Source of the DNA: Octopus vulgaris
Lineage: Eukaryota
Direction: 5' to 3'
DNA length: 64,000 nucleotides
Assembly (NCBI GenBank): GCA_951406725.2
Contig: OX597832.1
Span: 17,918,001-17,982,000, forward strand
Position 1 is the stretch's first letter, and each line of letters opens with the position of its first letter. Position numbers and translations under genes: made by a program. The notes under the pieces are model-generated. The model saw nothing but the letters and a program-made list of their open reading frames with translations. It was not told the DNA's origin and did no database searches. Positions 41,911-42,144 of this stretch are shown here, one piece after another.

Positions 41911-42144
41911 GCGTGGAAGGTGTTTATAAGCCATTTAAGAAACACACAAAACCGTTAGATTCACTTCAACATATACATTTAATTTGTCAAAATATGTTCG
42001 TCGCTTTGAGACCGCATCCTGTTCACTGACGAAGCTTCGTGCAGCGCGAAGCGACGAAAATATTTTGACAAATTAAATTTAAATGTTGAAGTGAATCTAA
42101 CGGTTTTGTGTGTTTCTTAAATGGCTTATAAACACCTTCCACGC
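41911..42144. repeat. Long inverted repeat, 96-bp arms (3 mismatches), 42-nt spacer, with hammerhead-like motif at the centre
   Basis: 41911-42006 is the reverse complement of 42049-42144. Confidence 0.9.

What the first reader, a model, noticed from the sequence alone, without database searches (positions are those of the whole stretch)
41911..42144. Fold-back element centred on a hammerhead-like motif with a compensatory G3:C8 core
Seen in sequence: 96-bp inverted arms starting ~15 bp after (TA)n. The minus strand of the left arm reads GTCA-GTGAACA-ggatgc ggtctcaaa gcgac-GAAc atatt t-TGAC, and the right arm supplies the unmutated 3' half gcgac-GAAA-ATATT-T-TGACAA. Combined, this gives stem I GTCA/TGAC, palindromic helix III AATATT, and core GUGAACA instead of CUGANGA. 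Established knowledge: C3 and G8 form a tertiary Watson-Crick pair, and double swaps can retain activity. Inference: a family using the rare G3:C8 variant, which CUGANGA-based searches would miss. Stem II is imperfect in this copy. Curiously, the + strand across the fold-back also has CTGACGA (42026-42032), an 8-bp hairpin, then gac-GAAA, giving a second near-hammerhead. The hairpin is also a potential ADAR/siRNA substrate.
Basis: partly seen in the sequence, partly recalled or inferred. Interest (0 to 1): 0.75.

Follow-up and report, generated by a model that had tools for sequence, protein, structure and literature searches.

The report
Swapped-core hammerhead in Penelope fold-back
The hairpin is two back-to-back stubs of a Penelope-type jumping gene whose thousands of copies carry a hammerhead RNA motif with two paired core letters swapped (G3:C8 instead of C3:G8); the family motif likely still self-cuts weakly in pairs, which is untested, and this copy is broken.

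Summary
The 96-bp inverted arms are real (93 of 96 identical). They are not a MITE. They are two head-to-head, 5'-shortened copies of the 3' repeat (pLTR) of a Penelope-like retroelement; I found the parent RT + GIY-YIG frame about 1 kb upstream of the same repeat elsewhere in the genome. The G3:C8 core is the family norm: 6,514 of 7,101 genomic matches, including copies next to long open frames. A sister family (54% protein identity) keeps C3:G8 in the same architecture, and the helices covary across families. The papers I could read report only U3:A8 as a natural swap; a key paper (Lünse 2017) was not available. Against function: no cleavage data, only 3 of 97 copies begin at the cut site, and a successful sister family lacks A9. 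This window copy cannot fold as a hammerhead, the two arms cannot complement each other in one RNA, and the second plus-strand motif is not valid. The scan already noted G3:C8 in this genome and on other DNA. Verdict: ordinary insertion structure, new natural variant of a known ribozyme motif, activity unproven.

The parts
41845..41896 (.). (TA)n microsatellite next to the 3' end of the left copy (likely insertion target)
   Evidence: many family copies end in (TA)n
41900..42045 (-). Left arm: pLTR copy starting at the common 5' end of the family and stopping at the short 3' end (no tail)
   Evidence: 86% to a young family copy; end classes
41986..42033 (-). Decayed minimal type I hammerhead: helix I, core with G3 (42026) and C8 (42021), extra G, helix II broken at 42017-42016, A15.1 changed to C (41996), U17 (41990)
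   Evidence: does not fold as a hammerhead, z = -0.1
42048..42207 (+). Right arm: second pLTR copy, 5'-truncated inside loop II, reaching the long 3' end (with the 50-60 nt tail)
   Evidence: 92% to a young family copy over 42050-42207
42051..42072 (+). Intact 3' half of the hammerhead only (helix II 3' strand, G12-A15.1, palindrome, U17, helix I 3' strand); the 5' core strand is missing
42121..42201 (+). Likely remnant of the first codons of the element's ORF (27 open codons from an ATG)
   Evidence: in the sister family the same part of the pLTR encodes the start of the 1312-aa frame; for this family the link is inferred, no complete 5' end of its ORF was seen
42026..42059 (+). Plus-strand 'second near-hammerhead': rejected; antisense of helix I with one change, three extra bases before G12, buried in the long duplex

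Best explanation
The fold-back is two head-to-head, 5'-shortened copies of the 3' repeat (pLTR) of a Penelope-like retroelement, and that family's minimal hammerhead motif has a fixed G3:C8 core pair that likely still supports slow self-cleavage when two motifs pair up, while this window copy is broken. Shown: family identity, parent RT + GIY-YIG frame, fixation of G3:C8, C3:G8 in sister families, covarying helices, damage in this copy. Inferred insertion: the element's RT/endonuclease nicks (TA)-rich DNA on both strands and primes reverse transcription at two internal sites just inside the ORF start, giving one short-ended and one long-ended copy that meet at their 5' ends. Inferred ribozyme action: in tandem transcripts two motifs would form a 6-bp helix III through the palindrome AAUAUU and cut after U17, probably slowly and with protein help; the swap would have passed through one weakly active step and then been kept by selection in the active lineages. 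Most inserted copies came from uncut RNA.
For: [quoted passage not shown] Fixation: 6,514 of 7,101 matches with positions 3 and 8 left free are G3:C8, reversed-pattern control 0; 56 of 66 copies picked by a downstream anchor that reach the core, none C3:G8. Only 52 matches change both positions; of the 9 with C3:G8, 8 belong to other families and 1 is a family copy. Sister families: 4,365 matches with C3:G8 in the same architecture; sister ORF 54% identical over 814 aa. Across 10 hand-picked representatives 96% of cells pair, 7 of 13 pairs change on both sides, pair 3:8 is CG 4, GC 4, UA 1, UG 1. Loop II has at least four versions while helix II stays. Older relatives 67-73% identical to the family also show G3:C8. 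Two intact family motifs fold into the hammerhead shape as lowest-energy structure (z -3.4, -2.5). Structure: 55 of 97 copies have an inverted partner; 3' ends fall in two classes (47 near 142-158, 50 near 187-212); 13 of 14 close pairs join one short and one long end. Literature: inverted 5'-truncated copies, one-sided tails and (TA)n targets are typical (PMC8557442); two internal start sites, both-strand cleavage, and partial rescue by the C3G/G8C double mutant were shown for a lizard element (PMC11167929).
Against: No cleavage was measured. Only 3 of 97 copies begin within 4 nt of the cut site, while 48 begin around a point ~58 nt upstream, so cutting does not define the inserted copies. 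In the lizard element hammerhead mutants did not affect insertion in vitro and no RNA reads ended at the cut site. The most abundant sister family carries C instead of A at position 9, so amplification does not need a textbook core. All G3:C8 copies may descend from one event; counts measure copy number, not independent selection. The representatives were chosen by me, the two with U3 are single decayed copies, and relatedness inflates the shuffle control. The older G3:C8 relatives were found with a pattern that demanded G3 and C8, so fixation in them is not shown.
Confidence: 0.75

Rival explanations
1. Same retroelement origin, but the motif no longer cuts: it is a hammerhead-derived structure kept for protein binding, RNA folding, or overlap with a promoter or splice signal, and the swap is tolerated rather than catalytic.
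For: 5' ends avoid the cut site (3 of 97) and cluster at an acceptor-like signal 21 nt before the core; sister family amplifies with C9; hammerhead not needed for insertion in vitro; some clades thrive without hammerheads.
Against: Exactly the two bases that pair are exchanged while U4, G5, A6, A9, G12-A14, A15.1:U16.1 and H17 are kept across families that differ by 46% in protein; the lab double mutant is partly active.
Confidence: 0.3
2. The fold-back is a MITE of a DNA transposon and the hammerhead likeness is chance.
For: Long inverted arms next to TA.
Against: 42 of 97 copies have no inverted partner, junctions vary from copy to copy, arms are unequal; the repeat is the 3' end of an RT + GIY-YIG element; no target duplication seen at this locus.
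Confidence: 0.02
3. This locus itself makes an active ribozyme, by combining both arms or through the plus-strand motif.
For: The plus strand has a canonical heptamer, a hairpin and GAAA.
Against: The halves lie on opposite strands; on either strand the GAAA, palindrome and helix I strand are locked in the long duplex; three extra bases precede G12 and helix I has only 3 pairs; the heptamer is one change away from the antisense of helix I.
Confidence: 0.02
4. The fold-back is a selected hairpin gene (miRNA/siRNA precursor or editing target).
For: Very stable hairpin; sub-threshold plant MIR2599 match, 49 bits against a cut-off of 120.
Against: Such fold-backs are a by-product in over half of sampled copies; editing of repeat hairpins is general in animals (PMC5625713); nothing shows this locus is transcribed.
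Confidence: 0.04

Closest known systems
Minimal type I hammerheads of metazoan Penelope-like elements (Cervera and De la Pena 2014, PMC4209133)
   Same: In the pLTR; extra base after A9; G10.1-C11.1; short palindromic helix III; H17; thousands of dispersed single or opposite-strand copies.
   Different: Core pair is G3:C8. The paper names only U3-A8 as natural covariation, and none of the 56 motifs in its Fig. S3 has G3:C8.
Natural U3:A8 hammerheads (Perreault et al. 2011, PMC3088659)
   Same: Compensatory change of the 3:8 pair in nature.
   Different: U3:A8 needs two transitions; G3:C8 needs two transversions and was not named in the passages read.
Engineered C3G/G8C double mutant, including in the Anolis Poseidon element (Frangieh et al. 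2024, PMC11167929)
   Same: Same base pair, same class of ribozyme and element; partly active; two internal RT start sites give a tail.
   Different: A lab mutant, not a natural family; different clade (no CX2-5CxxC linker in Penelope/Poseidon).
Neptune/Nematis-type endonuclease-bearing Penelope-like elements (Craig et al. 2021, PMC8557442)
   Same: RT, CX3CxxC linker, C-terminal GIY-YIG with CCHH, pLTR, inverted 5'-truncated copy, one-sided tail, (TA)n targets.
   Different: Neptune versus Nematis not resolved here; family itself not matched to a named entry.

Membership tests
Penelope-like element (EN+) | Single ORF with RT and C-terminal GIY-YIG | tested here: met
   L145 frame with YVDD motif read by eye and PF01541 hit above cut-off; no Pfam RT model and no PDB hit; best named homologs are annotated RT-domain proteins
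Penelope-like element (EN+) | 3' pLTR that overlaps the ORF start and carries a hammerhead | tested here: met
   Repeat ~1 kb after the stop; ORF start inside the pLTR shown for the sister family, inferred for this one
Penelope-like element (EN+) | Inverted 5'-truncated copy, optional tail, microsatellite targets | tested here: met
   55 of 97 with inverted partner; two 3' end classes; 13 of 14 pairs short + long
Neptune/Nematis clades | CX2-5CxxC linker before, and CCHH within, the endonuclease | tested here: met
   Both motifs read in the L145 translation against the description
Neptune/Nematis clades | Placement in an RT tree with named references | not tested
   No named reference set was at hand
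Minimal type I hammerhead | U4 G5 A6 A9 G12 A13 A14 A15.1 U16.1 H17 | tested here: met
   Each held in at least 93% of the 66-79 copies covering it; not met in the window copy (A15.1 is C)
Minimal type I hammerhead | C3 and G8 as letters | tested here: not met
   G3 and C8 in 6,514 of 7,101; hence filed as a variant
Minimal type I hammerhead | Watson-Crick pair between positions 3 and 8 | tested here: met
   G:C here, C:G in sister families
Minimal type I hammerhead | Helices I and II, palindromic helix III | tested here: met
   7-bp and 5-bp helices in the lowest-energy fold; covariation; perfect 6-nt palindrome. A cofold of two copies did not return the helix III dimer as lowest energy
Minimal type I hammerhead | Site-specific self-cleavage | not testable with these tools
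   No raw RNA reads; genomic 5' ends are not enriched at the cut site
MITE | Fixed terminal inverted repeats and target duplication in all copies | tested here: not met
   Variable junctions, unequal arms, 42 of 97 unpaired
Non-LTR retrozyme | Head-to-tail tandem units each with a hammerhead | tested here: not met
   This locus is head-to-head with two copies; short tandems exist elsewhere (L009, L050)

The most novel reading that the evidence does not exclude
A natural, long-kept and catalytically active G3:C8 hammerhead clade in animal retroelements, with at least 6,500 copies in one genome, invisible to CUGANGA descriptors, in which U17 was a precondition for the swap because a C17 would mispair with G3. 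It would show that the 3:8 pair is fully interchangeable in nature and that ribozyme censuses miss a whole class.
Probability: 0.4. Interest if true: 0.58.

Novelty: new variant of a known kind. Interest (0 to 1): 0.4.

Why it matters
The 3:8 pair was proven by lab double mutants; in the papers read, nature had shown only U3:A8. A family fixed for G3:C8 beside sister families with C3:G8 is a natural version of that experiment. It gives a ready test set (G3:C8, C3:G8, C9, U17 or C17) for the open question whether Penelope hammerheads are kept for cutting. It also means descriptors need G3:C8. The fold-back itself is ordinary.

Tried and rejected
Rfam: no hammerhead match at the locus, on an intact G3:C8 copy or on a canonical sister copy; uninformative. 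C2 tandem pair (L091) was a segmental duplication, not a full element. PDB sequence search of the ORF: no hit. Intron idea: an acceptor-like signal sits at the common 5' end (413 exact matches), but no conserved donor was found among 26 listed upstream segments; unproven. Sequencing runs: no RNA holder listed; 21 rows under four organism labels, all contigs, so starts, ends and expression cannot be read. No substitution rows were listed at G3 or C8 in those contigs, but 3 and 9 rows were hidden. Loose genome pattern counts overlapping matches and was not used for numbers. Searches failed on a poor reference and were replaced. U17 as specific co-adaptation: weakened, since C3:G8 families also have U17. 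Whether G3:C8 is fixed in the older relatives was not counted. Papers not held: Lünse 2017 (PMC5785218), Przybilski 2007 (PMC1986816), Martick 2006 (PMC4447102), Weinberg 2015 (PMC4509812), Arkhipova 2017.

Full report
Observation. The window is G000:C19:17918001-17982000 of a 2.8-Gb animal genome. The best named protein relatives of the element are labelled Octopus vulgaris, so an octopus is likely. The arms 41911-42006 and 42049-42144 match at 93 of 96 bases and fold far better than any of 200 shuffles on both strands. The right arm continues to about 42207.

Family. A 61-base query gave 642 candidates, 40 scored. The copies define a unit of about 205 nt. A pattern with positions 3 and 8 left free has 7,101 exact matches, control 0; 6,514 of them (91.7%) are G3:C8. 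Among 97 distinct copies anchored on a downstream 24-mer (from the first 100 of 5,104 matches, all on C1), 66 reach the core: 56 are G3:C8, none C3:G8, the rest scattered changes. Two intact copies fold into helix I and II as lowest-energy structure, z -3.4 and -2.5; the window's left arm does not, z -0.1.

Parent element. Copies that extend upstream lead into an open frame. [quoted passage not shown] The motif was found in 8 of the 16 loci scanned, always as G3:C8. Linker plus CCHH points to the Neptune/Nematis type; I made no tree. The right arm ends in 27 open codons, likely the ORF start, as shown directly for the sister family.

Is the swap compensatory? A sister family with a 1312-codon frame, 54% identical over 814 aa, has the same architecture with C3:G8; the C3:G8 pattern has 4,365 matches, control 0. 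Only 52 matches in the family's own context change both positions; I looked at all 9 with C3:G8, and 8 belong to other families. On 10 representatives that I chose, 96% of cells pair, 7 of 13 pairs change on both sides, and 3:8 is CG 4, GC 4, UA 1, UG 1; the sequences are related, so this is not a probability. Older relatives, 67-73% identical over the repeat, also show G3:C8 with another base at 7 and other loops, but the pattern required G3 and C8, so fixation there is open.

How the fold-back forms. 55 of 97 copies have an inverted partner at their 5' side. 3' ends fall into a short class (47) and a long class (50), about 60 nt apart. In 13 of 14 close pairs where both arms held the anchor, one arm is short and one long (p about 0.001 against a coin toss; one pair 500 bp apart left out). 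The window pair follows this rule. Inverted 5'-truncated copies, a tail on one end only and (TA)n targets are described for these elements (PMC8557442, passages). Nicking of both strands and two internal start sites were shown for a lizard element (PMC11167929, parts 1-2 of 4). I infer priming from both sides of the target.

Does it cut? Not shown. For: all other core letters are kept, the lab double mutant is partly active (review passage PMC8495972), and the palindrome would give a 6-bp dimer helix as proposed for this class (PMC4209133, parts 1-2 of 4 and supplement parts 1-2 of 3; review passages PMC6765202). Against: only 3 of 97 copies start within 4 nt of the cut site, 48 start around an acceptor-like signal 58 nt upstream; the abundant sister family has C9; the lizard hammerhead was dispensable for insertion in vitro; a cofold of two copies did not favour the helix III dimer. 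One paper states, as data not shown, that G3-C8 works better with G17 than C17 (PMC3884650, passages). The family has U17, which fits, but U17 also occurs with C3:G8.

This copy. The left arm has a broken helix II and C at 15.1. The right arm lacks the 5' core strand. They lie on opposite strands, and in either transcript the relevant bases sit in the long duplex. The plus-strand motif is the antisense of helix I with one change and has three extra bases before G12.

Novelty. Natural U3:A8 is published (PMC3088659, passages; PMC4209133). None of 56 motifs in the latter's Fig. S3 has G3:C8. Searches (listings only) showed no natural G3:C8; PMC6155905 (passages) and a 2026 preprint (10.64898/2026.07.22.740005, part 1 of 5) named none. 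Lünse 2017, with its supplements, could not be read and may hold it. Earlier scan notes report G3:C8 in this genome, in other animals and in phages; they are unchecked leads, and my viral test was inconclusive.

Verdict. Ordinary Penelope fold-back; real, family-wide G3:C8 variant of the minimal hammerhead; activity untested; this copy inert. Interest 0.4.

Noticed in passing
window 49498-49721: A second head-to-head fold-back, from the sister family (C3:G8 with C9), including its ORF start.
   Followed up: partly
L146:8386-8439, L183-L212: The abundant sister family has C at core position 9; older copies have A9 and C17, the youngest have C9 and U17. None of the 56 published motifs seen has C9.
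   Followed up: partly
L065, L145 and 413 genomic matches; just upstream of window 42045 on the minus strand in longer copies: Half of the copies begin at a branch-point, pyrimidine-tract and CAG-like signal; no conserved donor found. Start site, splice or trans-splice acceptor are all open.
   Followed up: partly
L260:215-412 and L093:1960-2200: Of 40 listed differences, 15 are under 1% in the large run X16; 12 of these are A>G or T>C and are raised in the small runs X2, X6, X14, similarly X10. This looks like A-to-I editing on both strands, but run type is a guess, data are contigs and individuals differ.
   Followed up: partly
L054:1235-1571: The two arms of one fold-back carry different loop II versions, which suggests two different RNA templates in one insertion.
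   Followed up: no
window 12797 (-), 13145 (+), 13905 (-): Three copies of another small hammerhead-like family, two with the canonical core.
   Followed up: no
L050:1405-2371: Four head-to-tail copies of the repeat separated by (TA)n, a short retrozyme-like array.
   Followed up: no
window 37233-40072: Long low-complexity GAT/GGT repeat array that gives spurious 900-codon frames.
   Followed up: no
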